A DNA stretch of 64,000 nt from Holophagaceae bacterium (lineage in GTDB: Bacteria > Acidobacteriota > Holophagae > Holophagales > Holophagaceae), in NCBI GenBank assembly GCA_016722505.1, contig JADKJH010000005.1:190872-254871 (forward strand), in the 5' to 3' direction. The stretch's first letter is position 1. Every line of letters starts with the position of its first letter. The notes under the pieces are model-generated. The model ran no database searches, was not told where the DNA came from, and was given only the letters and a program-made list of their open reading frames with translations. Positions 28,952 through 50,282 of this stretch are shown in pieces. The position numbers were made by a program, and so were the translations under genes.

Positions 28952-30080
28952 AGCTTCCGAACCCAAGGCCAACCAGAATCAAGGCCGCCTGCAATCCCAA
29001 CAACTGCACCAGGGCGCTACCCACCAGGGGGCCCACCATCATGCCAACGGCGTAGGCGATATTTAGGATCGAAAAAGCCGATGCATAACTGGTGCTTCCA
29101 GCCTTTTCAACTGCATCCGCCACCGCCGGACTCGATGGCGACATGATCAGGCTCGCGATGCTGCCCAGGGCCATCATGCTGGCGATGACAAGTACCGTGT
29201 GCCGGAAGAACACCGGCAGCGGAATGAACACCACGCTCAAGGCCAAGCCGATGATGAGCACTTTCTTGCGGCCGATGCGATCTGACAAATGCCCCATCAA
29301 GGGCGAAGTGAGCGTGTGCGTGAGCGCAGCAGCCGCAAAGCAAAGGCCGATCTGGCCAGGGCCAAAACGCAGCACCGCATCAAAGTGCAGAGGTAGCGTG
29401 GACTCCAGCACCGCCCACAAGGCAGATCCCAAGGCCAGTGCGCCGCTGAAGACAAGAATCACCGGGTTCCGCGCGAATACCATCGGACTGGTGCGCAGCT
29501 CTTTTTCCACCACTGCTTCTTCCAGAAGAAAAGCCCGCCCCCCCGCATCCAGCACGACTAATCCAATCCCGAAAAGAAAGGGCGCAGAAGCTCCCAATTC
29601 CTGTGTGAGATAACCAGAAATAGGCGGCCCGATGAGAAAGCCGAGATTGGCACAAGCGAAGGCCGTGCCCATAGCTTTCCCGCGTTGTTCACGGGGAAAG
29701 TGATCCGCCAGCAAGGCCATCCCGGGAATCCAAGTAGCCGCGCCGGCCGCGCCTTGAAGCCCTCGCGCAAGCACGAGCAGCCAATAATTCTTGGCGAACA
29801 AGAAGAGCAGCGTGGTTGCGCCCAAGGCCAACAACCCAATGAGCATCGGCCTGCGCCGCCCCACCCGGTCCGCAAGGCTTCCCAAGGGAAGCGTCACAGC
29901 GACCAAAGCGATGGCATAGCTCCCAAACAGCAGGCCGACGCGCATCTGCCCAAGATGCAGCTCCCGCGCATAAATTGGCAGGAGCGGCACCAGGAGATAG
30001 TAAAGAAACATATCGGTGAAAAAGGCCAAGCCCACCACGAACAGAGCAAGGGACTTGGCTGATGGGCGAGACTTCCTCAA
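28920..30080 (-). CDS. MFS transporter
   Basis: 12-TM major facilitator layout, GSLADRVGRRRP loop motif; 386 aa. Confidence 0.8.
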   Translation of the reverse strand: MRKSRPSAKSLALFVVGLAFFTDMFLYYLLVPLLPIYARELHLGQMRVGLLFGSYAIALVAVTLPLGSLADRVGRRRPMLIGLLALGATTLLFLFAKNYWLLVLARGLQGAAGAATWIPGMALLADHFPREQRGKAMGTAFACANLGFLIGPPISGYLTQELGASAPFLFGIGLVVLDAGGRAFLLEEAVVEKELRTSPMVFARNPVILVFSGALALGSALWAVLESTLPLHFDAVLRFGPGQIGLCFAAAALTHTLTSPLMGHLSDRIGRKKVLIIGLALSVVFIPLPVFFRHTVLVIASMMALGSIASLIMSPSSPAVADAVEKAGSTSYASAFSILNIAYAVGMMVGPLVGSALVQLLGLQAALILVGLGFGSFILVTRKVAP

Positions 30081-30805
30081 TGGTCGGCCGCCGAGACCTT
30101 ATCCACCCAAATGACTTCACAGGCTCCATCGCCTGAATCATCACGGGTCATGGAACTCTGCCATGTCCAACCATCCTTTCCATCCACGTGGACCAGATAG
30201 CCGTCCAGAGTCGCGATCTGGCCTTCCCGGACGCTCAGCAATCCGCGTTCCACCGCCTTGCTGGCTGGGATCATATGCATGTTGGCCGCATGGGATGTGA
30301 TCACATCCATGGGCAGCGGCAGTGTGCTTGCATTCCAGTGGAACCAGCGGTCGCTTTGGTTGATGTTCAATTTTTCAAGCACCGCAGAATCAGACATGGG
30401 GCCCCACCCCATCGCAAAATCTATTGGCGAAATTTCAGCAGCGCGGTCAAAGCGATAGCGTTCGGTGGAAAGCACCCGCGCATGGATATGGAAATTGGCC
30501 AGCGCAGTGAAGCGGTGGTCCTTTGCGGTCCAAGTCGTGCCTTTCAAAAGGTTCTCCTGCGCGGGGTCATCCGCCGCCAATACACCCGCAGGATGCCTGA
30601 CAGCGCGGGAATGCCAGTTGGAGCAACCCCAGCCCGCCATCAACACGGCGCCCAGCACCAGGGGCCAACGGGCCTTCAACCAGTAAAGCCATTCAGCGTC
30701 ATTTTCGTAGGGATCCATACCTGACCTTGGAAGCCCAGGATAACCCATCAAATCACCCGGCTGGCCGATGGGTTCTGTCCTCTCGGCGGCGCCTTGAACT
30801 ACCAT
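30077..30805 (-). CDS. Hypothetical membrane-anchored/secreted protein, ATGA-coupled to the downstream MFS transporter gene
   Basis: N-terminal signal-anchor WPLVLGAVLMAGWGCS; no recognisable domain; 4-nt overlap with the MFS gene. True start possibly at 30718 (MDPYEN). Confidence 0.5.
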   Translation of the reverse strand: MVVQGAAERTEPIGQPGDLMGYPGLPRSGMDPYENDAEWLYWLKARWPLVLGAVLMAGWGCSNWHSRAVRHPAGVLAADDPAQENLLKGTTWTAKDHRFTALANFHIHARVLSTERYRFDRAAEISPIDFAMGWGPMSDSAVLEKLNINQSDRWFHWNASTLPLPMDVITSHAANMHMIPASKAVERGLLSVREGQIATLDGYLVHVDGKDGWTWQSSMTRDDSGDGACEVIWVDKVSAADH

Positions 30806-32967: not shown

Positions 32968-35685
32968 CTAGAAGGCGGCCCTGGCGCTGAATTGCATGAC
33001 GCGGCCCTGCTGGTAGTTGTTGGGCTTCTGGGCCAGGTTGTTCGTAGCGCTCAAAGGCTGGGCATTGGTGAGATTCAAGACGTCCAATCCCAGGCGCAGA
33101 TCAGCGCCCTGGACTTTTTTGTGCCATGCGAAAGTGATGTCGAAACTACGGGCCCAAGGCAACTCACGGGCACCGCGAGCTTCACCTGGCGCTAGAACGG
33201 CGTTCCCGGAGACCTTGGCCAGGTTCGCGTAATGCAGGCCTGAGCGGATATTGAACGTCCCGGAAAGCTCAAGATTCAAGGGCAGCTTGGCCAATCCATA
33301 GGCTTTGAAATTGTGGCGGACATCTTCGTTGAGCGGACCGTCATACTTGCCCTGCCGGTAGTCTTCCGCAAGACCAGGAATCTGCGCGAAACCCGTGTTG
33401 GAAGGCGAGCTGCTGGCCACGTTCCCGACCTCGGAATTGCCGCTTAACCGGGCATTCGTGTAACTGAATCGCATCCAGTGGCCACCGTCAAAGGCGTGTT
33501 CCGCCACCAGATCCAAGCCGTTGTAATCGCGCTTCAGTCCCGGCAGATTGCCGATGACCCTCACGCCTGGCATAAAAGCCGGCAGGCCGAGATCAGCTGG
33601 GGCCAGGTAGCCCCAGGAAGGGTTGTAGGTGTCCACGAGATCTCTCATTGTTTTGCGGGTGTAAAGCACATCCAAAGTCCATTCACCCATGAATGCGCCG
33701 AGGTTCTGGACGCGCTGGGCGCCCACCTGGATCAGATCGGTGGAAGGCGACTTCAAACCCGGTTGCACTGCGAGTGTTTTCGGCACCACGACGCCCGCGG
33801 AGGCATAAGTCTTCCAAGCTGCCTGGGAGGGCACCCAAACCTGCTGCGTGGTGGAAGGTCCATCCGTCGTGGCGCCTGCGGGGCGCAGCGCGCCCGGCGA
33901 AGGCGGGCTGAAGATGCGGCCGAAGTAAGCGAACACGCGGGTCTGCCCGCGGCCATCGGGGTTCCAGGACACGCCCAAGCGCGGGCTCACCAGGGTTTGG
34001 CTGTAGAGTTCGTGTCCATCCTCGCCATCCGCGCTGGCCTTGTCCACGCGAAGGCCCAGATTGAAAGTCCAATAGGCATCGAGATGGTAGTCATCCTGAG
34101 CATAGAGGCCGATAGTCTTGGCCTTGAGAGGGCTCCCATATTCATTCAGGTCACTGAGAGTCCGACGGTAGAGAAAGCTCGCCACGCCCCCAAACAACTG
34201 GCCCGAAATAGGGCTCGGGGTCACCAGACTATCTAGATTCGCATAACCAAAATCGGATCCGCTGTTGGAGATCAACCCGGCGCGAATGGCCGCGATGTCT
34301 CCATTGCTAGGGCCTGCGCCGCCCGCGGCGCGATCCAGGTAGGAAAGGCCACCTGAGGGCCGCAAGAATACCCGGGTGAATTCCGAATCCAGCGCCTGGA
34401 GTCCGCCTTTGACAACATGCTCACCGTAATACCAGGTGAGTTCGCTCTTCACGGTCAGGTTTTTCACGCGCTCCAGGCGGTCCTCCGGGCTGCGGCCAAA
34501 GGACTCGCCGCCTGCGGCATCCAATTGGCCCCGGTAGGGACCGGCCTCGGGCGTGGCTGGCGACCATTGGAAAGCCGTCTGGTGCAACCCGATGGTGTTC
34601 TCCCAGGCGAGATTTCCGCCCAACAAACCCACATGCTTTGCCAAGAAGCTGTTGCCGCCCCGGGTGCGGTTGGCCTGCTGGAAATCCTTCACGGAGCTGT
34701 CGCCGGCCAGATCGAAATTGTATTGGGTGACGGGGTCGCCGAACCAGCTCAGATCCAGCCGATGGTTTTCGTTGAGGACCCAGGAGAGCTTGAGAAAGCG
34801 GTAGCTCCGGTCTTCGGATTGGATGCGGCGATGCGGCGGTGTTCCGATGGGCTGTACGTTCTCGAAATCCTGGGCCAGCAACTGGCGGTTGAAGGTGCCG
34901 AAGAAAAACAGTTTGTCCTTTATGAGAGGGCCGCTGAAGGAGAACCCGAATTCCGATGCGTCCGTGGGCCGCTCTTCGGGGGTGTTGGTTTTGCCGTCCT
35001 CTGGCTTGGCATTGTTGCCGCGGTTGATGCGGCTCGCGAACAGCGCGCCGTGGAAATCGTTGCCGCCGCTCCGGGTGACCTGGTTGTACACGGCTCCGGC
35101 CGCGAATCCATCCTCTGCCTTGTGGCCGCCGGTGGTGATGACCTGGCTTTCCAGGATTTCGCTGCTCATGTTCATGCCGAAGCGGCCCGTGGAGCTGAGA
35201 TTGGTGCTCATGCCATCCACCAGGAAGGCGTTGGCGTCCAGCATGGAGCCGTAGACCACGGGCTCGGGTTTTCCGCTAGGCGTGATGCCCGGCGCCAAAT
35301 AGCTGTGCTCCACGAAGCGGTGCGGCGCGAAGGGCAGGCTCTGCAGCTCAGCCTGGGTGAATCGCGTCTGCACACCCACGGAGCTGGTTTCCGCCAACAA
35401 AGGGGAAGCTTCCACCGCGACGGTGGCCTGCGCGTCGCCGATGCGCACGGTGACAAAGACCCGCTCATCCGGACGGAGGAGCACTTCCTTGCCATTGAGC
35501 CGGTAGCGGCCGGGGATCAGGCCGGAAGTTCCGGCCACACCCTCAGCATCGGTCACAAGGGTCCGGACTTCGCCGCGGTCCACAGTTTTGTCGAATTGAT
35601 CAGAAAATTCACAAAAGCTCCACGGAGAAGAAGGAGCCAGTCTATCTGACAAGAACATTAAATGTACATGGCAAAAACCATTCAA
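32968..35685 (-). CDS. TonB-dependent receptor-like outer-membrane beta-barrel with CarboxypepD_reg domain; 5'-truncated, no signal peptide
   Basis: CarboxypepD_reg segment starts at about residue 35; TonB plug/barrel features; C-terminal aromatic ...QFSARAAF. The annotated ATG abuts the stop of the upstream gene, leaving no room for the expected signal peptide and first roughly 45 aa. Confidence 0.7.
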   Translation of the reverse strand: MNGFCHVHLMFLSDRLAPSSPWSFCEFSDQFDKTVDRGEVRTLVTDAEGVAGTSGLIPGRYRLNGKEVLLRPDERVFVTVRIGDAQATVAVEASPLLAETSSVGVQTRFTQAELQSLPFAPHRFVEHSYLAPGITPSGKPEPVVYGSMLDANAFLVDGMSTNLSSTGRFGMNMSSEILESQVITTGGHKAEDGFAAGAVYNQVTRSGGNDFHGALFASRINRGNNAKPEDGKTNTPEERPTDASEFGFSFSGPLIKDKLFFFGTFNRQLLAQDFENVQPIGTPPHRRIQSEDRSYRFLKLSWVLNENHRLDLSWFGDPVTQYNFDLAGDSSVKDFQQANRTRGGNSFLAKHVGLLGGNLAWENTIGLHQTAFQWSPATPEAGPYRGQLDAAGGESFGRSPEDRLERVKNLTVKSELTWYYGEHVVKGGLQALDSEFTRVFLRPSGGLSYLDRAAGGAGPSNGDIAAIRAGLISNSGSDFGYANLDSLVTPSPISGQLFGGVASFLYRRTLSDLNEYGSPLKAKTIGLYAQDDYHLDAYWTFNLGLRVDKASADGEDGHELYSQTLVSPRLGVSWNPDGRGQTRVFAYFGRIFSPPSPGALRPAGATTDGPSTTQQVWVPSQAAWKTYASAGVVVPKTLAVQPGLKSPSTDLIQVGAQRVQNLGAFMGEWTLDVLYTRKTMRDLVDTYNPSWGYLAPADLGLPAFMPGVRVIGNLPGLKRDYNGLDLVAEHAFDGGHWMRFSYTNARLSGNSEVGNVASSSPSNTGFAQIPGLAEDYRQGKYDGPLNEDVRHNFKAYGLAKLPLNLELSGTFNIRSGLHYANLAKVSGNAVLAPGEARGARELPWARSFDITFAWHKKVQGADLRLGLDVLNLTNAQPLSATNNLAQKPNNYQQGRVMQFSARAAF

Positions 35686-36059
35686 TTTCCCTTGCCGCTC
35701 CAGGCCTGCAACCCCACCCCCACCACAATGATGGCGAGGGCCACCCAGCGCATGGGCGGGATCGCTTCAGCCAGGAAGGCCCTCGCCAGCACCGCGTTGG
35801 CGATGAACCCGAGCGCAAGGAAGGGATAGGCGTAGTTCACGTCCACCAGGGATAGGGCGCCCAACCACACCACCACACTCACCGCGTAGCAGGCGAGACC
35901 TGCCAGCACCCAGGGCTGAAGCATCAAACGCACCAGCGCGCCAAATTCCACTTGCATTCCGCCCGCGGCGTTAAGGCCCTTCTTAAGGCAGATTTGCGCC
36001 AGGGCATTGAGCAACACACCGATAACGATTAGAGGGATGGCTTTAAAGTTGGGGGACAT
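35682..36059 (-). CDS. ArnE/ArnF-like SMR/EamA-family small membrane protein (undecaprenyl-phosphate-aminoarabinose flippase subunit-like)
   Basis: 4-TM 125 aa protein with an EamA-like half; sits immediately downstream of GT-C glycosyltransferases. Confidence 0.7.
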   Translation of the reverse strand: MSPNFKAIPLIVIGVLLNALAQICLKKGLNAAGGMQVEFGALVRLMLQPWVLAGLACYAVSVVVWLGALSLVDVNYAYPFLALGFIANAVLARAFLAEAIPPMRWVALAIIVVGVGLQAWSGKGN

Positions 36060-36078
36060 GGTTCACCTCTCACGGTCT

Positions 36079-37506
36079 TCATTTAAGGAGTTGGTGCGTC
36101 ATCGGATCCTTGGCATTGATTTGACTGCGCAGTTTGGAGTCCAGACCGCGGAAACCCCAGGTGCCGATAATGAAAAACACCACGCAAACGGTCGCGGCGG
36201 TTTCGCGCACCAGGAATTCGCCCTCTCCATTGGCGCACCGAACACTCACCGAAAGCGCTCCCAGGGCCAATACCAGCGTAGCCAACCGCAGGGGTCCAAG
36301 CATGGGTGCGGCGGCGGCCTGAAGCCCAGCTCCCCCCAGACGAACCATACAAACTGCGAAAAAAGCGATGGAGGCCAACCAAAGCGCCGTGGCCATCACG
36401 GCTCCGATGCGCCGGATGCGGCCCATGCTGACGCCTTCCACGTAGACGGGTTGCAGCAACCCCGCCAGCAGCAAGGCCAGAAATGGATAGGCCATCAGCG
36501 GATCGGTCCCCCGCGTTCCATCACCCCACAGGCAGCTTGAAAACGGAACCAGGAACGCGAGTATCAAGAAGCGGGCGATGGGCGCTTTGTGGGCGCCGCT
36601 GCCCCTCAGGAAAATGACCAGGGCCGGCAGCAGCAGCGCCCAAGGGAACAGGTCCCGCACCAGGTATTCAGCATAAATCCAGGGGGATTGGATGCTTGAA
36701 AAACCCTGCAAGACGGCCTTAAACCCCGGCACCGGGACCAGGTTCCATGCGCATCCTGTAACCCCGACCGCGGCGAGAAGGAAGAATCCCCGATTCAAAA
36801 GGGTTTCTTTCAGGGCTTTCAAATCGGCCTGCCAGACCAGGAAGAGCAGAAGCAGCAGCGACGAGAACAGGAGCGGTTGCGGGCCTTTGATGAGAAAAGC
36901 GAGGCCAAGCCAGAGAGGCGATTTCCTGAACCAGCTCCGATGCTCATTCTCCTGTCCTTCGGCCTGGCGCCGCAGCAGCAGGTAGCCGGCCAGCCAACTG
37001 AGCCAGCTCCAGGCGAGCAGGGCGGAATACAGCAGGTCCACCTGGATGGCCTGCGACTGCCAGAACCAGATTGGCGTGGAACAAAGTATCAGCGTCGCCA
37101 GGCCCGCCACGTCGCCTTGGAGAAAGCGGGACGCCCACCGCCGGAAAAAACAAAGAAACAAGATGGAGCCGAGGATCGATGGAAGGCGCAGCGGCCAGGC
37201 CGGAAATCCGGATGCCGATCCGCTTCCCTGAAGCCCGGCCAACGCTGCCGGAATCTTTGTCAGCCAGAGATACAGGATGGATGATTCACCCAGTTCCTGG
37301 GGAGACCAGCTCCCCCGGTTCAGGAGGTCCCAGGTCAGGTCCGATATCCGGCGTTCATCGCCCCCCCAGGAACCCCGGCTGGATATCACGGCGATGAGCA
37401 ATATCCCGTACAGGATGACGATGCGGTTCTCCCGCACCCACTCCCCTAGCCGCTGCCCGGGAATCCGGGTTTCGCGGTGCTCTGAAAATTCATCAACTTC
37501 ATCCAT
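36079..37506 (-). CDS. GT-C fold membrane glycosyltransferase (GT39/GT83 PMT_2-like)
   Basis: Polytopic, 475 aa, GDERR first-loop motif, PMT_2-like hydrophobic core. Confidence 0.7.
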   Translation of the reverse strand: MDEVDEFSEHRETRIPGQRLGEWVRENRIVILYGILLIAVISSRGSWGGDERRISDLTWDLLNRGSWSPQELGESSILYLWLTKIPAALAGLQGSGSASGFPAWPLRLPSILGSILFLCFFRRWASRFLQGDVAGLATLILCSTPIWFWQSQAIQVDLLYSALLAWSWLSWLAGYLLLRRQAEGQENEHRSWFRKSPLWLGLAFLIKGPQPLLFSSLLLLLFLVWQADLKALKETLLNRGFFLLAAVGVTGCAWNLVPVPGFKAVLQGFSSIQSPWIYAEYLVRDLFPWALLLPALVIFLRGSGAHKAPIARFLILAFLVPFSSCLWGDGTRGTDPLMAYPFLALLLAGLLQPVYVEGVSMGRIRRIGAVMATALWLASIAFFAVCMVRLGGAGLQAAAAPMLGPLRLATLVLALGALSVSVRCANGEGEFLVRETAATVCVVFFIIGTWGFRGLDSKLRSQINAKDPMTHQLLK

Positions 37507-37559
37507 CCCCCCAGTGTCCCCCGGCGCCCTCGCCGGGCAAAGCGCATACTCAACAGGGA

Positions 37560-37853
37560 ATGGGAGGACCTATGCGCACCTTCATCCTTTGCACCCTGCT
37601 CGCCGTGCTGCCCTGCGTCGCCCAGGGCGCCAAGGAACAGATCAAATCGGATTTCAAGGAAGCTGGCAAAGACATCGCTCAAGCGGGGAAGAAAATAGGG
37701 CATGCCGCCAAGAAAGGTGGCAAAAAGGTCGGCCTGGTTGCGAAGGATAGTGGCAAAGCCATCGGCAAAGCCGCGAAGGAAAGCGGAAAAGCTGTTGGGA
37801 AAGGTGCCAAGGATGCCGGCCAAGGCGTGAAGAAAGCCCTGAAGAAGAAATAG
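37560..37853 (+). CDS. Secreted lysine-rich protein with five 11-residue repeats ([IV]G-x-AAK-x-SGKA)
   Basis: Signal peptide MRTFILCTLLAVLPCVAQG; mature part about 75 aa and highly cationic; repeats KIGHAAKKGGK / VGLVAKDSGKA / IGKAAKESGKA / VGKGAKDAGQG. Confidence 0.6.
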   Translation: MGGPMRTFILCTLLAVLPCVAQGAKEQIKSDFKEAGKDIAQAGKKIGHAAKKGGKKVGLVAKDSGKAIGKAAKESGKAVGKGAKDAGQGVKKALKKK

Positions 37854-37870
37854 ACCGGGTCCGACTGTTC

Positions 37871-39551
37871 CTATTTCAACCTTGCCAAAACCGTGCTGGG
37901 GCTGCGTCTAAGTTCCTGCCATTCCGACCGTTGGGTTTCGGGCAATCTGCCCCAATCATCCCTGTGGGCCAGCACCATCACCGGCTTCGATGGATCCTCG
38001 GATCTCATCCGCTGGGCGACGGTGCCAAGTTTCAATGGATCCTCCATGAACCAGCGATCCTGCTCAGCCTGGGCCAGCTGCCGTTTGCCGAATCCCAGCT
38101 CGCCGGTGCCGGCCACCACCACACAGCGCTGGCGCGTATGGAATGGAAGGCCCTGGAAATAGACGCCGAAGCTGATCCACTGGGCATTTGAAGGAGCGCG
38201 ATGGATCAGGGGGGCAACATCTTTTCCCGCGCTGGCCACGCGATCCGACACGAACACCAGCGCCAGCATGCAGCCGCCCAGGGAGGCCATCCAGCGAGGC
38301 GCGGTCAGGTGCTTCGGATACAAGGCGAACAGACCGACCAGTCCGAACGCGATGCCCAGTGCAACCACCCAGCCGTTGGCGTGGTTGAGATCCTTGGCGA
38401 AAACGAATCCGCCGATCAGGAAGATGGCGCCGAGCACGAACAACTCAACAGCGATCCGCTTCAAGCTGCGGAATTCTTCACCCTTTTCCTCGAAGGTGCA
38501 CCCCAGGGCCAGCATCGGCACTACGACGGGCAGGATGTAGGGCGCCAGCTTCGAGCCCGACACGCTGAAGAAAAAGAGGGGCCAGGCGAACGCCATCAGC
38601 ATCGTCGCCACGGTCCAACGGTTCAAGGCGGCTTCGAGGCCTTGAGGCCCCGTGGTCCGGCGTACGAAGGCGAGGCCCCGCTTGAGCCCGACAAGGCTAT
38701 GGCTGAGCCATGGGAGCATCCCCACCAGCAGGATTCCCGGGAAGTAGAGCTTGTCCAAGAACGGATTATCCGAACCCTGACGCGCGTGCTCATGCGTGAG
38801 GAACCGCGTGATGTGCTCATGGATGAAAAAGAACTGCGCGTGCCCCGGGTTGGCTTTGTTGACGAAGTAGAACCAGGGTGCCGTCAGCGCGAGGAAGAGC
38901 AGCCAGCCCAAAGGGATTGAACCCCATCGTCAGCACCGCTTTCCGCAGCTTCAGGTCCTTCCACGCGAAGGGCAGCGAAAGCCCCAGGATTCCGACCAGC
39001 AGCACCAGCGCGACAGGTCCCTTGGTCAGCACGGCAGCCGACAACGCGATGTAGGTCAGGAGAGTCCAGCCCATCGAGGCTTCGTTTCGGAATCTTGCTG
39101 CCACCGCTTCTAGCGCCGCTGTGAGTCCCAATACCAGGAATGCGGAAAAGAGCGCATCCAGCGTCAGTAGCTGGCTGCACACAAACGTCAGAAGCACCGT
39201 GGCCGTCATGACCATGGCCCAGATCGGTCCACGGGCGCCCAGGCGCCGCGCCAGCCGCCAGGCGCACCAGAACAGGATCAGCGAAGCCAGCGCCAAGGGG
39301 AGCCGGGCCGCCACCGCATTCAATCCAAAAAGCTTCATGGATGCCGCGGAAATCCAGTACTGCAACGGCGGTTTTTCGAAATACAGTACGCCGTTGAGGG
39401 TTGGCGTGAGCCAATCGCCAGAAGCCAGCATCTCCCGCGGAATTTCCGCGTAGCGGCCTTCGTCAGGTTCCCAAAGCGGCCGCATGAACAGCGGCAGCAG
39501 CCCCAGGATGGCCCAGAGCATCAGGTAGGTGGTGCGATCACGCTTGGTCAT
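37871..39551 (-). pseudogene. ArnT-like undecaprenyl-phosphate-sugar:lipid A / protein glycosyltransferase (GT83), frameshifted near 38880-38910 (gggg run)
   Basis: N fragment has the EPDEGRYAEIPREMLASGDWLTPTLNGVLYFEKPPLQYW ArnT/PMT signature; C fragment continues with APWFYF...HEHITRFL. The two are in different frames and overlap 38817..38911. Confidence 0.75.
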
Positions 39552-39564
39552 GGCTCGGCAGGTG

Positions 39565-39665
39565 GTGAGGTGGAGAGGTATGAGGGGCGAGGTTCAATAA
39601 GGTGGCGGCCAAAGGCCACATCAGCTAGTGCGCTGAAGGCGCACCCCTCATATCTCATACCTCAC
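39565..39665. repeat. Structured intergenic repeat element, copy 1 (about 101 bp, 25-bp imperfect terminal inverted repeats, internal hairpins); overlaps the stop codon of the arnA-like gene
   Basis: Left arm gtgaggtggagaggtatgaggggcg, right arm gcgcacccctcatatctcatacctcac. Core ttcaataaggtggcggccaaaggccacatcagctagtgcgctgaaggcgcac is about 80% identical to 61038..61145. Confidence 0.7.
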
Positions 39666-40732
39666 CCCTCCTCCTCCACCTGCTCCATGGCTTCGTACTC
39701 TTTCAGGAAGAAGTCGAGGCTCTTGGCCAGGGCCTCCTTCATGCTGACTTTGGGATCGAACCCGAAGGCGTCCTGCATCCGCTTGATGCTGGGTGTCCGC
39801 GTCAGCACATCCTGGTAGCCCTTGCCATAGAACGTCCCGCTGCTGGTTTCCACCAGTTCCGATAGCGGAATATTCCGCTTGATGCGCTCCGGGTGGACCC
39901 TCCACAACTCCAGCAGCATCTCCGCCACCTCGCGGACGCTGTGGTCGAGCTTGGGATTGCCGATGTTGAAGATATGGCCATCGGCCTTCCCTCCTTCATT
40001 TTTCAGCACCATCATCAGCCCGTCCATGGCGTCTTCCACGTCAATGAAGCAACGGCGCTGGGCGCCGCCGTCCACTAGCTGCAGCGGTTCGCCCTGGATC
40101 AGGTTCCACACGAATTGGGTCACCAGCCGCGAACTGCCTTCCTTCGCGGTGTTGAGGCTGTCCAGTTTGGGTCCCATCCAATTGAAAGGCCGGATCAGCG
40201 TGAATTTCAAACCATCCCGCTGGCCGTAGCCCCAGATCACGCGGTCCAGCAGCTGCTTGCTGGTGGAATAGATCCAGCGCTGCATGGGGATGGGGCCGGT
40301 CACTAGGGGAGAGGTCTCCTCGTCGAAAGCCGCGTCCGGGCACATGCCATAGACTTCCGAAGTGCTCGGGAACACCACGCGCTTTTTGTACTTCACGCAT
40401 TGGCGCACGATTCGCAGATTCTCTTCGAAATCCAACTCGAAAACCCGCAACGGATCCTGGACATAGATCTTCGGCGTAGCGATGGCGACCAGGGGCAGCA
40501 CCACGTCGCACTTCTTCACGTGGTACTCGATCCATTCTTTGGAGATGGTGATGTCGCCTTCCACGAAATGGAAGCGGTCATGGCCCAAATGTTCCGTGAC
40601 CTTATGGGTGCCGAGATCCATCCCGTACACCTCCCAATTGGTATCGCGCAAGATGCGCCCCACCAGGTGGGAACCGATGAATCCGTTGACGCCGAGGATG
40701 AGGACTTTCACATGTGCTCCAGAACAAACCAT
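39662..40732 (-). CDS. Standalone ArnA C-terminal dehydrogenase domain homolog (UDP-glucuronic acid oxidative decarboxylase, UDP-4-keto-pentose forming)
   Basis: Strong collinear similarity to E. coli ArnA residues about 317-660 (ILGVNGFIG, HFVEGDI, EWIEYHVKKCDVVLPLVAIATP, RVFELDFEENLRI, FPSTSEVYGMC, RWIYSTSKQLLDRVIWGYG, GNP...). Confidence 0.9.
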   Translation of the reverse strand: MVCSGAHVKVLILGVNGFIGSHLVGRILRDTNWEVYGMDLGTHKVTEHLGHDRFHFVEGDITISKEWIEYHVKKCDVVLPLVAIATPKIYVQDPLRVFELDFEENLRIVRQCVKYKKRVVFPSTSEVYGMCPDAAFDEETSPLVTGPIPMQRWIYSTSKQLLDRVIWGYGQRDGLKFTLIRPFNWMGPKLDSLNTAKEGSSRLVTQFVWNLIQGEPLQLVDGGAQRRCFIDVEDAMDGLMMVLKNEGGKADGHIFNIGNPKLDHSVREVAEMLLELWRVHPERIKRNIPLSELVETSSGTFYGKGYQDVLTRTPSIKRMQDAFGFDPKVSMKEALAKSLDFFLKEYEAMEQVEEEG

Positions 40733-40794
40733 TCAGTCTACCAGTGGATCGCGGCGGCCCAAATTCCTCAGAACGGCGAAACCGCCGGGGACAT

Positions 40795-41490
40795 TCAGAT
40801 CCCCAGCGTCCGCCGCAATTCTTCCATCCGGCGGCGGCTGACGGGGATCCGCCCGCTCGACAGCACCAGATCATCGTCCGCGCTCAGCTCCCGGATGGCC
40901 TGGACCCGGACCAGCGCGTTGCGGTGAACCCGGAAGAAGCCCTGGTCCTTCAAGCGTTCCTCCCAGAAGGCCAGTGTGCCGTCCACCGGTAGGCGGCCCT
41001 CCGCCACCCAGGCCACGCAATCACCCAAATCCGCCACCAGCGCGTCCACCTCTTCGGGCTGCAACAGGCGGGTGCCGGACTTTCGGCGGACGGGGATGCG
41101 CCGCCACTCCCGCTGGAGCGGCTCGTCCTTGGGGCGGATCCTGGAGATGGCCTGCGCCACACCGACCCGCGAAATGGGCTTGAGTAGATAGTGGACCGCG
41201 CCGCCAGCGAAGGCCTCCACAGCGTGCTGCGGATGGGCCGTCACGAAAACCACCGCAGGTTTCGGTTCCGACAGGAGCTGCATCAGTTCCACACCTTTCA
41301 TCCCTGGCATCTCGATGTCGAGGAACGCCGCGTCAGGCTTTAGTCCGGCAATAGCGGCAAGTCCAGCGCGGCCGTTTTCGGCCGTGGCCACCACTTCGAT
41401 TCCCGGAAGCTCCGAGAGCAGGTCCGCCAGATGCTGGCGCGCCAAGGGCTCGTCCTCCACCACGACCACGCGTATCAAGGTTGCCTCCAC
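40795..41490 (-). CDS. LytR/AlgR-family response regulator (CheY receiver + LytTR DNA-binding domain)
   Basis: Receiver with phospho-acceptor D (FLDIEMPGMKG); LytTR domain at the C-terminus. Confidence 0.85.
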   Translation of the reverse strand: MEATLIRVVVVEDEPLARQHLADLLSELPGIEVVATAENGRAGLAAIAGLKPDAAFLDIEMPGMKGVELMQLLSEPKPAVVFVTAHPQHAVEAFAGGAVHYLLKPISRVGVAQAISRIRPKDEPLQREWRRIPVRRKSGTRLLQPEEVDALVADLGDCVAWVAEGRLPVDGTLAFWEERLKDQGFFRVHRNALVRVQAIRELSADDDLVLSSGRIPVSRRRMEELRRTLGI

Positions 41491-42518
41491 CGGAAGCTTG
41501 CCACGGTGCGGGCATCTATTCGTTCCAGGCTCAAATCCTGGGGCTTCGAGAGGCGGCCCCGGAGCGTCGCCAGCGCCGTGCCGGTCCCCCGCTGGAAGCC
41601 GATGCCCGTGCCAGGATCGCTCACCTCCACCACCAGGACTTTCCCCTCCTGCCTCGCCCCGATGCGGATCTCCCCGCCACCCTCCAATGGCGCGATGCCA
41701 TGCTTCACAGCATTCTCCACGAGCACCTGCAGCGAAAGCGGCGGCACCGATGCGGATTCAAGTTCTTCGGGGATGTCCACGCGGACCCTCAGCCTTTCGC
41801 CCAGCCGCGCCTGCTCGATGCCCAGGTAGGCTTCGACGAATCCAAGCTCCTGCTTGAGCGGGATCGCCGCCGAATCCGAAACCTCGATCGCCTGCCGGAA
41901 GAGCTGGGCCAACCGCTCCGTAGTGGCCTGTGCCCCGCGCGGATCCGCTTCGATCTGCGCGTGGAGCGTGTTCAACGTGTTGAAGATGAAATGCGGCGCG
42001 AGCTTCGCGCGGAGCGCCTGCTCCCTGGCCAGCAGTTCCAGGTTTTCCAGCCGGGACTGATGTTCGCGGCCCACGATGCTTCCCAATATCATCACGGGGA
42101 AAAGCACGAGGAACAGCACCGAAACCGGCGCGTGGTGCCCCAGGATTTGGGAACCGGCCGCCAGGGCAACGCCAACAGGGACCGCGATCATCACGCTGCG
42201 GGCTTCCATCCGGGCCCGCCAGGCCTCAAATTCACGGGGCGAGAAGGTAGCCAGTTTGGATCGGCGGATTTCCTTCAATCTGAGCAGGATGATGAAATAG
42301 CAAACAAACCCCGCGCACAGGAGCAATCCAATCATCCAAGGATGAGGCAACCCGCCCCGCGCCTCCATCCAACGGCTATCGAGAAGACCCTGCACAACGG
42401 CATAGGGGAGCACCAGGGTCAAGATCCACCCTAGCCCACCATCAAGAGACCGGGTCATCCCAAGGGGGTGGAAAAGTTGCTGCAGCTTGAACGGGGGACT
42501 TGCGGGGACCTGCGACAT
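41475..42518 (-). CDS. LytS/YehU-type sensor histidine kinase (His_kinase PF06580 + HATPase_c)
   Basis: 4 N-terminal TM helices; HFIFNTLN H-box typical of LytS-type kinases; N/G boxes (LVENAVKHG, DPGTGIG); 16-nt overlap with the response regulator gene. Confidence 0.8.
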   Translation of the reverse strand: MSQVPASPPFKLQQLFHPLGMTRSLDGGLGWILTLVLPYAVVQGLLDSRWMEARGGLPHPWMIGLLLCAGFVCYFIILLRLKEIRRSKLATFSPREFEAWRARMEARSVMIAVPVGVALAAGSQILGHHAPVSVLFLVLFPVMILGSIVGREHQSRLENLELLAREQALRAKLAPHFIFNTLNTLHAQIEADPRGAQATTERLAQLFRQAIEVSDSAAIPLKQELGFVEAYLGIEQARLGERLRVRVDIPEELESASVPPLSLQVLVENAVKHGIAPLEGGGEIRIGARQEGKVLVVEVSDPGTGIGFQRGTGTALATLRGRLSKPQDLSLERIDARTVASFRWRQP

Positions 42519-42716
42519 GAAATTCCTCCAACACCAGAATCGCCCAATCGCTCAAGTCCGGTTCAGCCACCCCGTGATCGGCAATACGACGCCGTGAATG
42601 GCTTCACCGTGCCCTTGAACGGTCGCGCAGAGCAGCGCTTGCCCTGCCCGGTTCCCATTTCGGCCGCTCCGCCCCTCGCGGTTCGGCTTTCCCCGGTACT
42701 TCCTGCGACCCGAAGT

Positions 42717-43771
42717 TCAAACCCGGCAGACCACTTTCCCGAAGCCCTGCCCCGCCTCCAGGTGCCGCTGCGCCTCGGGGTAATCAGCGAGATTGAACAC
42801 CCGGTCGATGACGGGCCGGAAGGGCGGGTTGGTGGGATTGCGCTGGATATGCCCCAGCAGGGTCCACAGGTGTTCGCGGCGGCCCATGTAGGATCCGAGG
42901 AAGGTGAGTTGCCGGGCGAAAAGGGAGCGGAGGTCCAGCGTGATTTCGCGGCCCGTGGTGGCGCCGCAGGTGACGATGCGGCCCCCACGCGCGACGGAGG
43001 CGACGCTGGTCGCCCAGCTCGCGGCCCCCGTGTGTTCAAAAACCAGGTCCACTCCGCGCTTCTGGGTCAGCTCCTTCACTTTTATCGCCACATCCTGGAT
43101 GTCGCGGACGATGACATGCTCGGCGCCCAGTTCCCAGCACTTCACGGCTTTCATCTGATTGCCCACCACGGCGATGGCATGGCCACCAAGGAATTTCACC
43201 AATTGGATGGCCGCACTGCCTACGCCGCTGCTACCACCCCAAATCAAGACCGTTTCGCCCGGTTTCAGGTTGGCTTTATGCACAAGCATTTCCCAAGCAG
43301 TGAGGAAGACCAGCGGAAACGCCGCCGCCTGCTCAAAGTCCCAGTTTCCCGGGATGGGCAGCAGGTTGGCCGCAGGCACCATCACCTGGGTGGCTGCGGT
43401 GCCATCACAGGCATGGCCCATAACCTTATAGTCGCGGCAAAGCATATCGTCGCCCCGCAGGCAGGCCGCGCAGACGCCGCAGCTGAGCCCCGGCGCGATC
43501 ATTGCGCTGCCATTCAGTTCCACGCCTGGCGGCAAAATCGTGCCTTCCCCCACGGCCTCCACGAGGCCTGCGCCATCGCACCGGGGGTGAGCGGCAGCGG
43601 CAAGGGATACCCTTTCAGCCCCACCGTGGTCCACAGATCCAGATGGTTGAGCGCCATAGCCTTTAGTTGAAGCCTCACCCAGCCTGGCTTTGGGTCCTGC
43701 GGTTCGAAACCTTCCCGAACCACAGAACCGGCGGGGCCATGCTCATTCACGCGGAAACGGTAGGCGTTCAT
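42717..43771 (-). pseudogene. Zinc-type/MDR-family quinone oxidoreductase (alcohol dehydrogenase superfamily), frameshifted near 43540-43600
   Basis: N fragment MNAYRFRVNEHGPAGSVVREGFEPQDPKPGWVRLQLKAMALNHLDLWTTVG (GroES-like); C fragment ...CDGAGLVEAVGEGT...LIWGGSSGVGSAAIQL (Rossmann). Different frames, overlap 43514..43634. Confidence 0.7.
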
Positions 43772-49278: not shown

Positions 49279-50282
49279 ATGAAGAAACTTGCAATCAACG
49301 GCCTGGGCCGGATCGGCCGGCTGGTCCTTCGGCTCTTGATAAAAGACCCCCAAGTCCAGGTGGTAGCGGTGAACGATCTCACCGACGCGGCGACATTGGC
49401 GCATCTCATAAAACACGACTCTGTGCACGGCACCGCGGATTTCCCTGTGGCCGCCGATGGCGATTTTCTTGTGCTGGATGGAAAGCGCATCCGCGTTTAC
49501 GCGGAAAAAGATCCACAGCTCATCCCGTTCGGCGCGTTGGGCGCGCAAGTGGTGTTGGAGTGCACTGGCATCTTCACCAAGAAAAATCAGCTTCCGCGCA
49601 TATCCAGGGCACCGTGAGCCACGTCATCATCAGCGCACCGGCCGACGATGCCGATCGCACGGTGGTGATGGGCATCAACGAGCAGGAGATCGATCCCGCC
49701 AAAGAATCCGTCCTTTCAAATGCCAGCTGCACCACCAACTGCCTGGCACCCATGGTCCAGGTGCTGGATCAGGCATTCGGCCTTGAACTCGGATTGATGA
49801 CCACGATCCACAGCTACACCAACGATCAACGGATCCTCGATCTCCCCCACAAGGACTTGCGCAGGGCCCGGGCCGCTGCACTTTCCATGATTCCCACCAG
49901 CACGGGGGCGGCAAAAGCCATAGGGCTCGTGATGCCGCATCTCAAGGGAAAGCTGGATGGCATTTCGGTCAGGGTTCCCACTGCGGACGTAAGCCTTACG
50001 GATCTGACCGCGACGCTCAAAACCGACGCATCCAAGGACGCTGTGAACGCGGCATTCAAGCAGGCCAGCCTTGAAGGCCCCCTGGCGCCTTATCTGGACT
50101 ATCTGGAAGAAGAACTCGTCAGCGTGGATCTCATCGGCAGCCCCGCCAGCTGCAGCTTCGATCCCTATCTCACCAAAGCTCTCGGGCCTCGCATGGTCAA
50201 GGTCTTCGGCTGGTACGACAACGAATGGGGATATTCAGCCCGGCTCAAGGATCTCTGTATGCATGTCTTGAACAAGCTTTGA
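49279..50282 (+). pseudogene. gap: Glyceraldehyde-3-phosphate dehydrogenase (type I), split by a frameshift in an A5 run (about 49583-49590)
   Basis: N fragment MKKLAINGLGRIGR...LECTGIFTKK; C fragment ...VSHVIISAPA...SNASCTTNCLAP...WYDNEWGYS. Different frames, overlap 49560..49617. Confidence 0.85.

What the first reader, a model, noticed from the sequence alone, without database searches (positions are those of the whole stretch)
35682..42518. Envelope-modification gene cluster: LytS/LytTR two-component system, then standalone ArnA dehydrogenase domain, two GT-C ArnT-like transferases and an ArnE-like gene, all on one strand
All of the following are transcribed in the same direction on the minus strand: a LytS-type kinase; a LytTR regulator; a protein highly similar to the E. 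coli ArnA C-terminal domain (UDP-GlcA oxidative decarboxylase); an ArnT-family GT83 (EPDEGRYAEIP motif); a second GT-C transferase; and an ArnE/F-like SMR protein. ArnB, ArnC and the ArnA formyltransferase are absent from the window. The sugar donor may therefore be an undecaprenyl-phosphate pentose made by a non-canonical route, and the acceptor (lipid A, LPS core or a protein) is unknown. LytS-type kinases sense membrane perturbation and cationic peptides in Firmicutes, so a LytS-driven lipid A or envelope charge-modification regulon is plausible. For an Acidobacteria-like organism this would be undescribed.
Basis: partly seen in the sequence, partly recalled or inferred. Interest (0 to 1): 0.6.

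Follow-up and report, generated by a model that had tools for sequence, protein, structure and literature searches.

The report
Partial Ara4N-type envelope cluster, Holophagaceae
This is a real gene cluster, conserved in Holophagaceae, that looks like the last steps of the known aminoarabinose lipid A modification pathway; the neighbouring two-component system is an optional, lineage-specific neighbour, not a demonstrated regulator.

Summary
(1) ArnT is split by a one-base homopolymer indel. This is one of five such indels in the window and is probably a sequencing error. (2) A conserved small Lys-rich secreted-protein gene lies on the opposite strand between ArnT and the second GT-C gene. The cluster is therefore neither all on one strand nor one operon. 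(3) In this lineage the second GT-C gene is a short ArnT paralogue that has lost the ArnT catalytic and phosphate-binding residues. (4) The kinase has the PF06580 core but no LytS sensor domain.

The core ArnA_DH, ArnT, (K-rich), GT-C2, ArnE is conserved in every Holophagaceae/Geothrix locus recovered. The two-component system sits beside it only in this window and one relative (L097). A third genome keeps a decayed relic, and the others have none. A -10-like box upstream of ArnA_DH is conserved whether or not the system is present.

ArnA_DH is clearly of the ArnA type (470 bits to ArnA versus 101 bits to UXS), and ArnT keeps all known ArnT signature residues. ArnB, ArnC, ArnD and the formyltransferase are absent from the window and from within 10 kb in the ten full-flank relatives. 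Whether they lie elsewhere in the genome could not be tested.

Verdict: a new variant of a known system, of modest interest.

The parts
41475..42518 (-). Sensor histidine kinase, 347 aa. It has four N-terminal TM-like segments, then a PF06580 His_kinase domain and HATPase_c. It has no 5TMR-LYT or GAF domain.
   Evidence: Pfam; hydropathy; 77% identical orthologue at the same place in L097; the only PDB match is a kinase core.
40795..41490 (-). Response regulator, 231 aa, with receiver and LytTR DNA-binding domains. It overlaps the kinase gene by 16 nt, so the two look like one operon, kinase first.
   Evidence: Pfam. NCBIfam BtsR 146 bits (cutoff 246) and LytR 89.9 bits (cutoff 375). L097 has an 89% identical orthologue; L092 keeps a relic of residues 188-231.
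42572..42623 (-). Three direct repeats (ACCGTTCAAGG, GCCATTCACGG, GCCGATCACGG) spaced 21 and 20 nt apart, 55-105 nt upstream of the kinase start. They are a candidate autoregulatory LytTR site.
   Evidence: partly conserved at the aligned positions in L097. The motif is not enriched in the window. This is inference only.
40712..40743 (-). Conserved leader of ArnA_DH: an extended -10-like box TGgTAGACT (40735-40743), GGAG (40717-20), then the GTG start at 40711.
   Evidence: Conserved in L003, L007, L092, L093, L095 and L097, with a variant (CTAAACT) in L098, whether or not the two-component system is present. Promoter function is inferred.
39662..40711 (-). Standalone ArnA dehydrogenase-type enzyme (UDP-glucuronate C4-oxidative decarboxylase, giving UDP-4-keto-pentose), 349 aa.
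   Evidence: NF008872 540.6 bits (cutoff 294). 58% identity to E. coli ArnA residues 316-651. T432, S433, E434, Y463, K467 and R619 equivalents are conserved. PDB: ArnA 466-474 bits, PbgP3 430 bits, UXS 101 bits. dN/dS 0.02-0.08.
39552..39661 (-). Structured intergenic stem-loop between ArnA_DH and ArnT.
   Evidence: The 151-nt stretch 39540-39690 folds at -74.8 kcal/mol (z -5.3); the 110-nt intergenic region alone has z -3.9. The same element occurs in L097, different hairpins in L003 and L093, none in L092 or L095. No Rfam match.
37871..39551 (-). ArnT-like GT-C (GT83/GT39-type) polyprenyl-phosphate-sugar transferase. It is 559 aa once one extra base at about 38907-38916 is removed. The DEGRYAEI motif lies at 39438-39470.
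   Evidence: Intact 559-aa orthologues are 77-90% identical. CmArnT 5EZM E=1e-39, with conserved residues at the positions I recall as functional. RYA/YFEKP motifs defined in PMC5377068. dN/dS 0.09.
37572..37853 (+). Small secreted Lys-rich protein: 93-aa precursor, 74-aa mature form, 22 Lys, pI 10.2, with 11-residue repeats (I/V)GxxAKxxGKx. It is convergent with ArnT and divergent from GT-C2.
   Evidence: Called as a 70-104 aa gene at the same place in L092-L100. dN/dS 0.13-0.18. No Pfam or NCBIfam family.
36079..37506 (-). GT-C2, a diverged ArnT paralogue, 475 aa. This is the short form. It lacks the loop-1 motif (PDEPDFAQ...YSEKP), has an 11-aa deletion that removes QNFxRATxAWDHIQPWW, and lacks the C-terminal domain of about 100 aa that Geothrix-type orthologues have.
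   Evidence: dN/dS 0.22-0.28. Other reading frames do not restore the motifs.
35682..36059 (-). ArnE/ArnF-like 4-TM small transporter, 125 aa, encoded by a single gene. It is the putative flippase for the polyprenyl-phosphate sugar.
   Evidence: NCBIfam ArnE 36.7 bits and ArnF 33.6 bits, both below cutoff; a weak Pfam EamA match. 35% identity to E. coli ArnE. 75-91% conserved in relatives; dN/dS 0.05-0.08.

Best explanation
The window comes from a Holophagaceae (Acidobacteriota) genome. It carries that family's conserved envelope-glycosylation module, which is homologous to the ArnA-dehydrogenase, ArnT and ArnE/F steps of the Arn (Pmr) lipid A aminoarabinose pathway.

Shown:
- a bona fide ArnA-type UDP-GlcA oxidative decarboxylase;
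- an ArnT orthologue-like GT-C enzyme that keeps all known ArnT signature residues and is under strong purifying selection;
- a single ArnE/F-like small transporter;
- a second ArnT paralogue (GT-C2);
- a small polycationic secreted protein, always in the order ArnA_DH > ArnT > < K-rich, GT-C2 > ArnE.

Inferred pathway:
1. UDP-GlcA is converted to UDP-4-keto-arabinose by ArnA_DH.
2. Enzymes encoded elsewhere (ArnB-, formyltransferase-, ArnC- and ArnD-like) convert it to undecaprenyl-phosphate-Ara4N.
3. The ArnE-like protein flips this carrier-linked sugar.
4. ArnT transfers the sugar to a lipid A phosphate. This lowers the negative surface charge.

The module has at least two transcription units, because the K-rich gene is convergent with ArnT. 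In this sublineage GT-C2 has lost the Lys, Arg and Tyr residues that hold the carrier phosphate in ArnT. It is probably no longer a transferase, although it is still under purifying selection.

The ArnT frameshift is most likely a homopolymer sequencing error.

The PF06580/LytTR two-component system was inserted between the upstream quinone-oxidoreductase gene and ArnA_DH in an ancestor of a small subclade, and has since been lost again in sister lineages. It may read through into, or modulate, ArnA_DH-ArnT in this organism, but it is not part of the conserved system.
For: Taxonomy and synteny. The core is conserved in all loci long enough to show it: L003-L007, L009-L011, L092-L097, L099.

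ArnA_DH identity.

ArnT identity. Intact 559-aa orthologues. dN/dS 0.09.

Five single-base indels at or next to short homopolymer runs, including in pyruvate kinase and GAPDH, relative to the fully syntenic L092.

K-rich gene.

GT-C2 decay.

Patchy two-component system: present in L097 (kinase 77%, regulator 89% identical); a regulator relic in L092; absent from L093, L095, L098, L099, L003-L007 and L010-L011.

Conserved -10-like box regardless of the two-component system.

Standalone DH is the commonest state: PMC12650200.
Against: No ArnB, ArnC, ArnD or formyltransferase gene lies in the 64-kb window, nor within 10 kb in the ten full-flank relatives. The Ara4N assignment therefore depends on genes I could not look for.

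ArnT (178 bits) and ArnE (36.7 bits) fall well below the NCBIfam equivalog cutoffs (567 and 92). Those cutoffs look calibrated on close (presumably enterobacterial) orthologues.

No lipid A chemistry for Holophagae turned up in the paper library.

The two-component system has stayed next to ArnA_DH, in the same orientation and with no predicted terminator, through about 15-20% protein divergence (window versus L097). This is compatible with a functional link.
Confidence: 0.6

Rival explanations
1. The PF06580 kinase senses membrane perturbation or cationic peptides, and through the LytTR regulator it switches on ArnA_DH-ArnT (and GT-C2-ArnE) as an envelope charge-modification regulon.
For: The genes run in the same orientation. 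Only 83 nt separate the regulator stop from the ArnA_DH start, and no terminator-like site lies between them. The kinase is an intramembrane type with four TM segments and minimal loops. The arrangement is kept in L097 at an identity similar to the neighbouring genes, and the window and L097 also share the ArnA_DH-ArnT hairpin.
Against: The two-component system is absent from this position in all other related loci that include it, and is decaying in L092. The ArnA_DH -10-like box is conserved without the system. The sequence upstream of that box is not conserved between the window and L097. The triple direct repeat found upstream of the kinase gene has no counterpart upstream of ArnA_DH, ArnT or GT-C2 in either genome. 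None of 80 loci with related kinase cores has arn genes. GT-C2-ArnE is a separate transcription unit.
Confidence: 0.2
2. The donor is a non-canonical pentose. The enzyme behaves like the Ralstonia bifunctional UDP-4-keto-pentose/UDP-xylose synthase, and the GT-C enzymes use a polyprenyl-phosphate xylose or another pentose, without amination or formylation.
For: The best NCBIfam model is NF008872, 'bifunctional UDP-4-keto-pentose/UDP-xylose synthase'. ArnB, ArnC, ArnD and the formyltransferase are consistently absent from the cluster in more than ten genomes.
Against: ArnT keeps the RYA and YFEKP motifs, which PMC5377068 defines as ArnT signatures, and the acidic residues aligned with CmArnT D55 and D158. 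Any GT-C donor still needs a GT2-type polyprenyl-phosphate glycosyltransferase, which is also missing locally. Local absence therefore says little about the pathway. Arn genes can be split between loci in other bacteria (my recollection, not checked here).
Confidence: 0.12
3. The acceptor is not lipid A. The two GT-C proteins glycosylate a periplasmic or outer-membrane protein, or another glycan, in the manner of PMT/GT39 enzymes. One candidate substrate is the adjacent Lys-rich protein.
For: The Pfam hits are to PMT/PMT_2, and sources name the proteins 'glycosyltransferase family 39'. A secreted protein gene is invariably embedded between the two transferase genes.
Against: The closest solved structure and the only NCBIfam equivalog hit are ArnT. 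ArnT-specific motifs are present. The cluster is tightly linked to ArnA_DH and to an ArnE-like gene. The mature K-rich protein has only 3 Ser and no Thr.
Confidence: 0.1
4. The module is decaying in this organism. On this view the ArnT frameshift is real and GT-C2 is a dead enzyme, so the cluster no longer modifies the envelope.
For: The frameshift is in the sequence as given. GT-C2 has lost its catalytic-loop motifs and its C-terminal domain, and has the highest dN/dS in the cluster.
Against: Four other single-base indels at or next to short homopolymer runs hit housekeeping genes within about 20 kb (PK, GAPDH, a quinone oxidoreductase, Band_7). This points to sequencing error. ArnT dN/dS is 0.09 on the window-L092 branch. 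The short GT-C2 form is an intact ORF in five related genomes, with dN/dS 0.22-0.28, so it is still under selection.
Confidence: 0.1

Closest known systems
E. coli/Salmonella arnBCADTEF (pmrHFIJKLM) lipid A Ara4N operon
   Same: ArnA dehydrogenase chemistry: 58% identity and all catalytic residues kept. ArnT-type GT-C transferase with RYA/YFEKP motifs. ArnE/F-like small 4-TM transporter.
   Different: No ArnB, ArnC, ArnD or formyltransferase in the locus. The dehydrogenase is standalone. There is one ArnE-like gene instead of an ArnE/ArnF pair. There is an extra ArnT paralogue and an embedded antisense gene for a Lys-rich secreted protein. No PmrA/PhoP-type regulator is present.
Standalone ArnA_DH enzymes: Burkholderia PbgP3 (PDB 3SLG) and Ralstonia solanacearum UDP-4-keto-pentose/UDP-xylose synthase (NCBIfam NF008872)
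   Same: Same single-domain architecture. 430 bits to 3SLG; 540.6 bits to NF008872, above its cutoff.
   Different: From my recollection (not checked here), those enzymes sit in or near full arn clusters. Here the neighbours are only ArnT, GT-C2 and ArnE. Whether this enzyme also makes UDP-xylose is unknown.
Cupriavidus metallidurans ArnT (PDB 5EZM/5F15)
   Same: Alignment over residues 14-490, E=1e-39. Residues are conserved at the positions corresponding to D55, E84, K85, D158, H265, H267, R270 and Y345. The residue roles are from my memory of the structure paper.
   Different: Only moderate sequence similarity over the aligned region (percent identity not computed). The acceptor specificity is untested.
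Rhizobium RgtA/B/C/D family (several ArnT-like GT-C paralogues that add GalA to lipid A and core)
   Same: Precedent for several ArnT-like paralogues serving different acceptor sites. UniRef names the Geothrix GT-C2 'Glycosyltransferase RgtA/B/C/D-like'.
   Different: No similarity test against the Rgt proteins was run. The linked nucleotide-sugar enzyme here is a decarboxylase, not a GalA-forming epimerase. In the window's lineage GT-C2 lacks the catalytic-loop residues.
LytSR / BtsSR (YehUT) LytTR two-component systems
   Same: PF06580 kinase core with HATPase_c, and a receiver plus LytTR regulator.
   Different: No 5TMR-LYT or GAF sensor domains. The regulator is below the BtsR and LytR equivalog cutoffs. 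I found no report linking a LytTR system to lipid A modification.

Membership tests
Arn (Ara4N lipid A modification) pathway | UDP-GlcA C4-oxidative decarboxylase (ArnA C-terminal domain type) | tested here: met
   NF008872 540.6 bits (cutoff 294). T432, S433, E434, Y463, K467 and R619 equivalents are present. 466-474 bits to ArnA structures versus 101 bits to UXS.
Arn (Ara4N lipid A modification) pathway | ArnB aminotransferase, ArnA formyltransferase, ArnC GT2 and ArnD deformylase | tested here: not met
   None in the 64-kb window by tblastn or Pfam. None within 10 kb in 10 related loci. The rest of the genome was not testable with these tools.
Arn (Ara4N lipid A modification) pathway | ArnT transferase with RYA and YFEKP periplasmic-loop motifs and carrier-phosphate-binding residues | tested here: met
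   The sequence reads DEGRYAEIPREMLASGDW...YFEKPP; FIHEHITR and SKLAPY are conserved relative to 5EZM. Motifs are defined in PMC5377068. However, the NCBIfam equivalog NF009784 scores only 178 bits against a cutoff of 567.
Arn (Ara4N lipid A modification) pathway | ArnE/ArnF heterodimeric flippase | tested here: inconclusive
   There is a single 125-aa gene. ArnE scores 36.7 bits (cutoff 92) and ArnF 33.6 bits (cutoff 99). 35% identity to E. coli ArnE over 66 aa.
Arn (Ara4N lipid A modification) pathway | Ara4N actually present on lipid A phosphate | not testable with these tools
   This needs lipid A mass spectrometry. No Holophagae lipid A data were found.
ArnT family (applied to the second GT-C, 36079-37506) | RYA and YFEKP motifs, plus Arg and Tyr equivalents of CmArnT R270 and Y345 | tested here: not met
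   The window has GGDERRISD...LGESS, with no Lys, Arg or Tyr equivalents. It also has an 11-aa deletion and lacks the C-terminal domain. Geothrix-type orthologues carry the variant DEPDFA...YSEKP.
UDP-xylose synthase (UXS) used for capsule or glycans | Closer similarity to UXS than to ArnA_DH | tested here: not met
   UXS structures score 101 bits; ArnA scores 466-474 bits.
LytS-type sensor kinases (LytS, BtsS/YehU) | 5TMR-LYT membrane sensor domain (and GAF) N-terminal to the PF06580 core | tested here: not met
   Pfam finds only His_kinase (74.4 bits) and HATPase_c. The N-terminus has four TM-like segments.
LytTR response regulators | Receiver domain plus LytTR DNA-binding domain | tested here: met
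   PF00072 78.9 bits and PF04397 54.9 bits. The BtsR and LytR equivalog cutoffs are not reached.
Protein O-mannosyltransferase (PMT/GT39) | PMT domain plus MIR-type luminal domain and a protein acceptor | tested here: inconclusive
   The Pfam PMT hit is above cutoff (67.3 bits) and no MIR domain was reported. The best structural and equivalog matches are ArnT.

The most novel reading that the evidence does not exclude
The Holophagaceae locus could be a distinct envelope-remodelling system rather than a fragment of the Arn pathway. On this reading, an ArnA-type decarboxylase feeds a carrier-linked pentose made by a non-canonical route. Two ArnT paralogues with different loop-1 motifs (RYA/YFEKP and DFA/YSEKP) decorate two acceptor sites. 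The invariably embedded polycationic periplasmic protein with 11-residue repeats works with them, for example by binding or shielding anionic LPS. In the window's sublineage the second transferase has become a non-catalytic partner, and a LytTR two-component system has been recruited as regulator.
Probability: 0.1. Interest if true: 0.6.

Novelty: new variant of a known kind. Interest (0 to 1): 0.3.

Why it matters
If the module does add Ara4N, or another sugar, to lipid A, it would be the first described lipid A charge-modification system in Acidobacteriota, which are abundant in soil, sediment and wastewater. It would help explain intrinsic tolerance to cationic peptides and metals in those habitats.

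The conserved pairing of ArnT with a motif-variant paralogue and a polycationic periplasmic protein is not part of any described arn operon. It gives concrete genes to delete in cultivable Geothrix.

Several features that seemed unusual turn out to be ordinary:
- the standalone ArnA_DH is the commonest state outside Gammaproteobacteria;
- the kinase/regulator adjacency is lineage-specific;
- the split ArnT gene is probably a sequencing artefact.

Tried and rejected
- Exact-sequence look-ups of the ArnA_DH product, with either start, found nothing on record.
- Rfam search of 35000-43000 gave no hit.
- Promoter and terminator consensus scans of 35400-42900 were no better than shuffled sequence.
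- I searched for LytTR-like direct repeats upstream of ArnA_DH, ArnT and GT-C2. None were found. The motif upstream of the kinase gene is not enriched in the window (5 matches against 4.9 expected).
- I tested whether other reading frames restore the GT-C2 motifs, which would indicate compensating frameshifts. They do not.
- I tested whether the short GT-C2 is a truncation unique to this window. It is not; the form is shared by L092, L093, L095 and L097.
- A metagenome scan with the kinase returned only catalytic-core relatives (49% identity or less, and none matching the first ~80 residues of the N-terminal sensor region). It therefore could not identify orthologues.
- I considered a programmed +1 frameshift at CCC_U in ArnT. 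I rejected it because relatives encode the protein in one frame and the window carries four other homopolymer indels.
- The word-indexed homology search with the K-rich protein gave only 5 hits. The profile search gave 423 low-complexity-prone hits with no annotation.
- Literature searches for arn or Ara4N in Acidobacteria, and for LytTR control of lipid A modification, found nothing relevant.

Full report
**What is in the sequence.**
On the minus strand between 35682 and 42518 there are ORFs for the following:
- a histidine kinase (41475-42518; Pfam His_kinase PF06580 at 74.4 bits, plus HATPase_c);
- a response regulator (40795-41490; Response_reg plus LytTR);
- an SDR enzyme (39662-40732);
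- two overlapping ORFs in different frames that both match ArnT (38817-39551 and 37871-38911);
- a second GT-C-like ORF (36079-37506; PMT_2 at 25.7 bits, just under the 26.1 cutoff);
- a 125-aa 4-TM protein (35682-36059) with weak ArnE and ArnF matches.

tblastn with the E. coli K-12 ArnB, C, A, D, T, E and F proteins hits only the ArnA C-terminal half (58% identity, residues 316-651), ArnT (two pieces) and ArnE. Pfam scans of about 50 of the largest ORFs across the 64 kb show no DegT-type aminotransferase, GT2, formyltransferase or ArnD-type deacetylase. The gene inventory and the stated absences are therefore correct.

**Four corrections to the observation.**

*1. ArnT is split by a frameshift.* One extra base in CCCTTTGGG (about 38907-38916) breaks the frame. 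Removing it gives a 559-aa protein. That protein is 77-90% identical over its full length to 18 intact 559-aa proteins from Holophagaceae MAGs.

The closest fully syntenic relative is L092 (GCA_016720465.1, about 80-86% nucleotide identity). Compared with it, the window carries five single-base, frame-changing indels, each at or next to a short homopolymer run. They fall in GAPDH, pyruvate kinase, a quinone oxidoreductase, ArnT and a Band_7 protein. ArnT has dN/dS 0.09. The frameshift is therefore most likely a sequencing or assembly error.

*2. A real gene lies on the plus strand at 37572-37853.* It encodes a signal peptide followed by a 74-aa mature protein with 22 lysines, pI 10.2 and 11-residue repeats. 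Gene callers find it at the same place in every relative. This includes a 37%-identical 70-aa homologue in the more distant loci L099 and L100. Its dN/dS is 0.13-0.18. It is convergent with ArnT and divergent from GT-C2, so the cluster is neither all on one strand nor one operon.

*3. GT-C2 is an ArnT paralogue that has decayed in this lineage.* A profile of the family matches CmArnT 5EZM at E=8e-17. Geothrix-type orthologues are 560-575 aa and carry a variant loop-1 motif, DEPDFA...YSEKP. The window's sublineage (window, L092, L093/94, L095/96, L097) has a 472-497 aa form. That form has lost:
- this motif, including the Lys;
- an 11-aa segment carrying QNFxRATxAWDHIQPWW;
- the Tyr equivalent;
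- the C-terminal domain of about 100 aa.

Other reading frames do not restore these features. dN/dS is 0.22-0.28, so the gene is relaxed but still under selection.

*4. The kinase is 'LytS-type' only in its PF06580 core.* No 5TMR-LYT or GAF domain is detected, and the N-terminus is four TM-like segments. The regulator is below the BtsR and LytR equivalog cutoffs.

**Identity of the enzymes.**
The SDR scores 540.6 bits to NCBIfam NF008872, the bifunctional UDP-4-keto-pentose/UDP-xylose synthase equivalog (cutoff 294). Other evidence:
- It keeps the equivalents of ArnA T432, S433, E434, Y463, K467 and R619.
- It scores 466-474 bits to ArnA structures and 430 bits to the standalone Burkholderia PbgP3 (3SLG).
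- It scores 208 bits to UDP-apiose/xylose synthase and 101 bits to human UXS.

A standalone dehydrogenase is not unusual. According to PMC12650200, the DH-formyltransferase fusion is confined to Pseudomonadota, and separate proteins are the commonest state.

The repaired ArnT aligns with CmArnT over residues 14-490 (E=1e-39). The alignment shows PDEGRYAEI, YFEKPP, TLD, FIHEHxxR and SKLxxY conserved. RYA and YFEKP are the ArnT family motifs, whose Tyr and Lys are essential in Burkholderia and Salmonella ArnT (PMC5377068). The residue roles in CmArnT are from my memory of the structure paper. The NCBIfam ArnT equivalog cutoff is not reached (178 versus 567 bits). I therefore call the protein ArnT-like by motif and fold, not a curated equivalog.

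**Conservation and the two-component system.**
A genome scan with GT-C2 returned ten Holophagaceae/Geothrix loci. Look-ups of ArnT homologues added L092-L098, and a look-up of a K-rich homologue added L099 and L100. Every locus long enough shows the order ArnA_DH, ArnT, (K-rich, antisense), GT-C2, ArnE. It usually lies downstream of plsY-gpsA and a quinone oxidoreductase, with variable insertions. These insertions include an Omp85-like gene, CorA, an aspartyl protease, a GATase, and DUF535/VirK between ArnT and GT-C2 in L004. None has ArnB, C, D or the formyltransferase within 10 kb.

The evidence on the kinase-regulator pair is as follows.
- It is found at this position only in L097 (kinase 77% and regulator 89% identical, similar to the neighbouring genes).
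- L092 keeps a 44-aa relic of the regulator C-terminus (59% identity) in its spacer.
- L093, L095, L098, L099, L003-L007 and L010-L011 have none. The pair therefore entered an ancestor of a small subclade and has been lost repeatedly.
- The roughly 45 nt before the ArnA_DH start (TGGTAGACT...GGAG) are conserved with or without the pair.
- The sequence further upstream is not conserved between the window and L097.
- Upstream of the kinase gene there are three direct repeats spaced 20-21 nt apart, partly conserved in L097. They are plausibly an autoregulatory LytTR site.
- Nothing similar precedes ArnA_DH, ArnT or GT-C2 in either genome, and the motif is not enriched in the window.
- Eighty metagenomic loci with related kinase cores contain no arn genes, but they are distant and lack the sensor region.

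A regulatory link in this organism remains possible, because there is an 83-nt gap and no terminator-like site. It rests on adjacency alone.

**Most likely mechanism.**
Shown: the enzyme identities and the conserved architecture. Inferred: the steps below.
1. ArnA_DH makes UDP-4-keto-arabinose from UDP-GlcA.
2. ArnB-, formyltransferase-, ArnC- and ArnD-type enzymes encoded elsewhere produce undecaprenyl-phosphate-Ara4N.
3. The ArnE-like protein, presumably as a homodimer, flips it.
4. ArnT transfers it to lipid A.

In Geothrix-type genomes GT-C2 probably serves a second acceptor site. In the window's lineage it has probably lost transferase activity. The role of the K-rich periplasmic protein is unknown. 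A profile search finds 423 mostly small representatives at E<=1e-3, with no annotation, and low complexity limits what can be inferred from them.

I put about 0.6 on this reading. The alternatives overlap and are not mutually exclusive:
- about 0.2 on genuine control of the arn genes by the two-component system;
- about 0.12 on a non-canonical pentose donor;
- about 0.1 on an acceptor other than lipid A;
- about 0.1 on a truly broken ArnT.

**Novelty.**
Annotation pipelines already name these proteins 'ArnT family' or 'Ara4N transferase-like'. I found no paper on arn, Ara4N or lipid A modification in Acidobacteriota, nor on LytTR control of lipid A modification. The conserved five-gene architecture differs from described arn operons. 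It has a motif-variant ArnT paralogue and an embedded polycationic secreted protein, and it lacks a local arnBCD. I therefore rate it a new variant of a known kind, of modest interest (0.3).

Noticed in passing
window 37572-37853 (+): A small secreted Lys-rich protein with 11-residue repeats (74 aa mature, 22 Lys, pI 10.2). It always lies antisense between ArnT and GT-C2 in Holophagaceae, including a 37%-identical 70-aa homologue in L099 and L100. It has no Pfam or NCBIfam family. A profile search finds 423 small representatives at E<=1e-3.
   Followed up: partly
window ~49582, ~48593, ~43580, ~38907-38916, ~31040: Five single-base, frame-changing indels at or next to short homopolymer runs, relative to intact orthologues in L092. 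They fall in GAPDH, pyruvate kinase, a quinone oxidoreductase, ArnT and Band_7. The assembly looks indel-prone, so ORF-based annotation of this window under-calls genes.
   Followed up: yes
window 39552-39661 (-); L097:4094-4211; L003:2468-2546: Strong stem-loops lie between ArnA_DH and ArnT (z -3.9 to -7). The same element occurs in the window and L097. L003 and L093 have unrelated hairpins, and L092 and L095 have none. There is no Rfam match. It could be an intercistronic stabiliser or attenuator.
   Followed up: partly
window 42572-42623 (-): Three direct repeats RCCRYTCAHGG spaced 20-21 nt apart upstream of the kinase gene, partly conserved in L097. They are a candidate LytTR autoregulatory site.
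   Followed up: partly
window 30077-30805 (-): A conserved hypothetical protein (242-aa ORF; called as 213 aa in relatives) with one N-terminal hydrophobic segment and no family or PDB match. It follows ArnE directly in L004 and L010, and a similarly placed unannotated 202-aa gene in L100 may be the same. Elsewhere it sits beside the divergent Band_7 gene, so it may belong to the ancestral cluster.
   Followed up: partly
L092:8488-8869, L095:5685-5860, L098:5606-5866: The spacers between the quinone oxidoreductase and ArnA_DH carry arrays and inverted copies of CTTTGTGG/CCACAAAG (CTTCGTG in L098). In L092 these flank the relic of the LytTR regulator gene. They could be repeat elements or recombination scars at a rearrangement hot spot.
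   Followed up: no
L004:8707-9675; L010:1655-2551; L099:4928-7063: In some relatives a DUF535/VirK-family gene sits between ArnT and GT-C2, and CorA (Mg2+ channel) and Omp85-like genes sit just upstream of ArnA_DH. These neighbours fit an outer-membrane or divalent-cation theme.
   Followed up: no
window 49279-50282 and 50298-51302 (+): Two tandem GAPDH genes, also present in L092 and L093. The first is the one hit by a homopolymer indel in the window.
   Followed up: no
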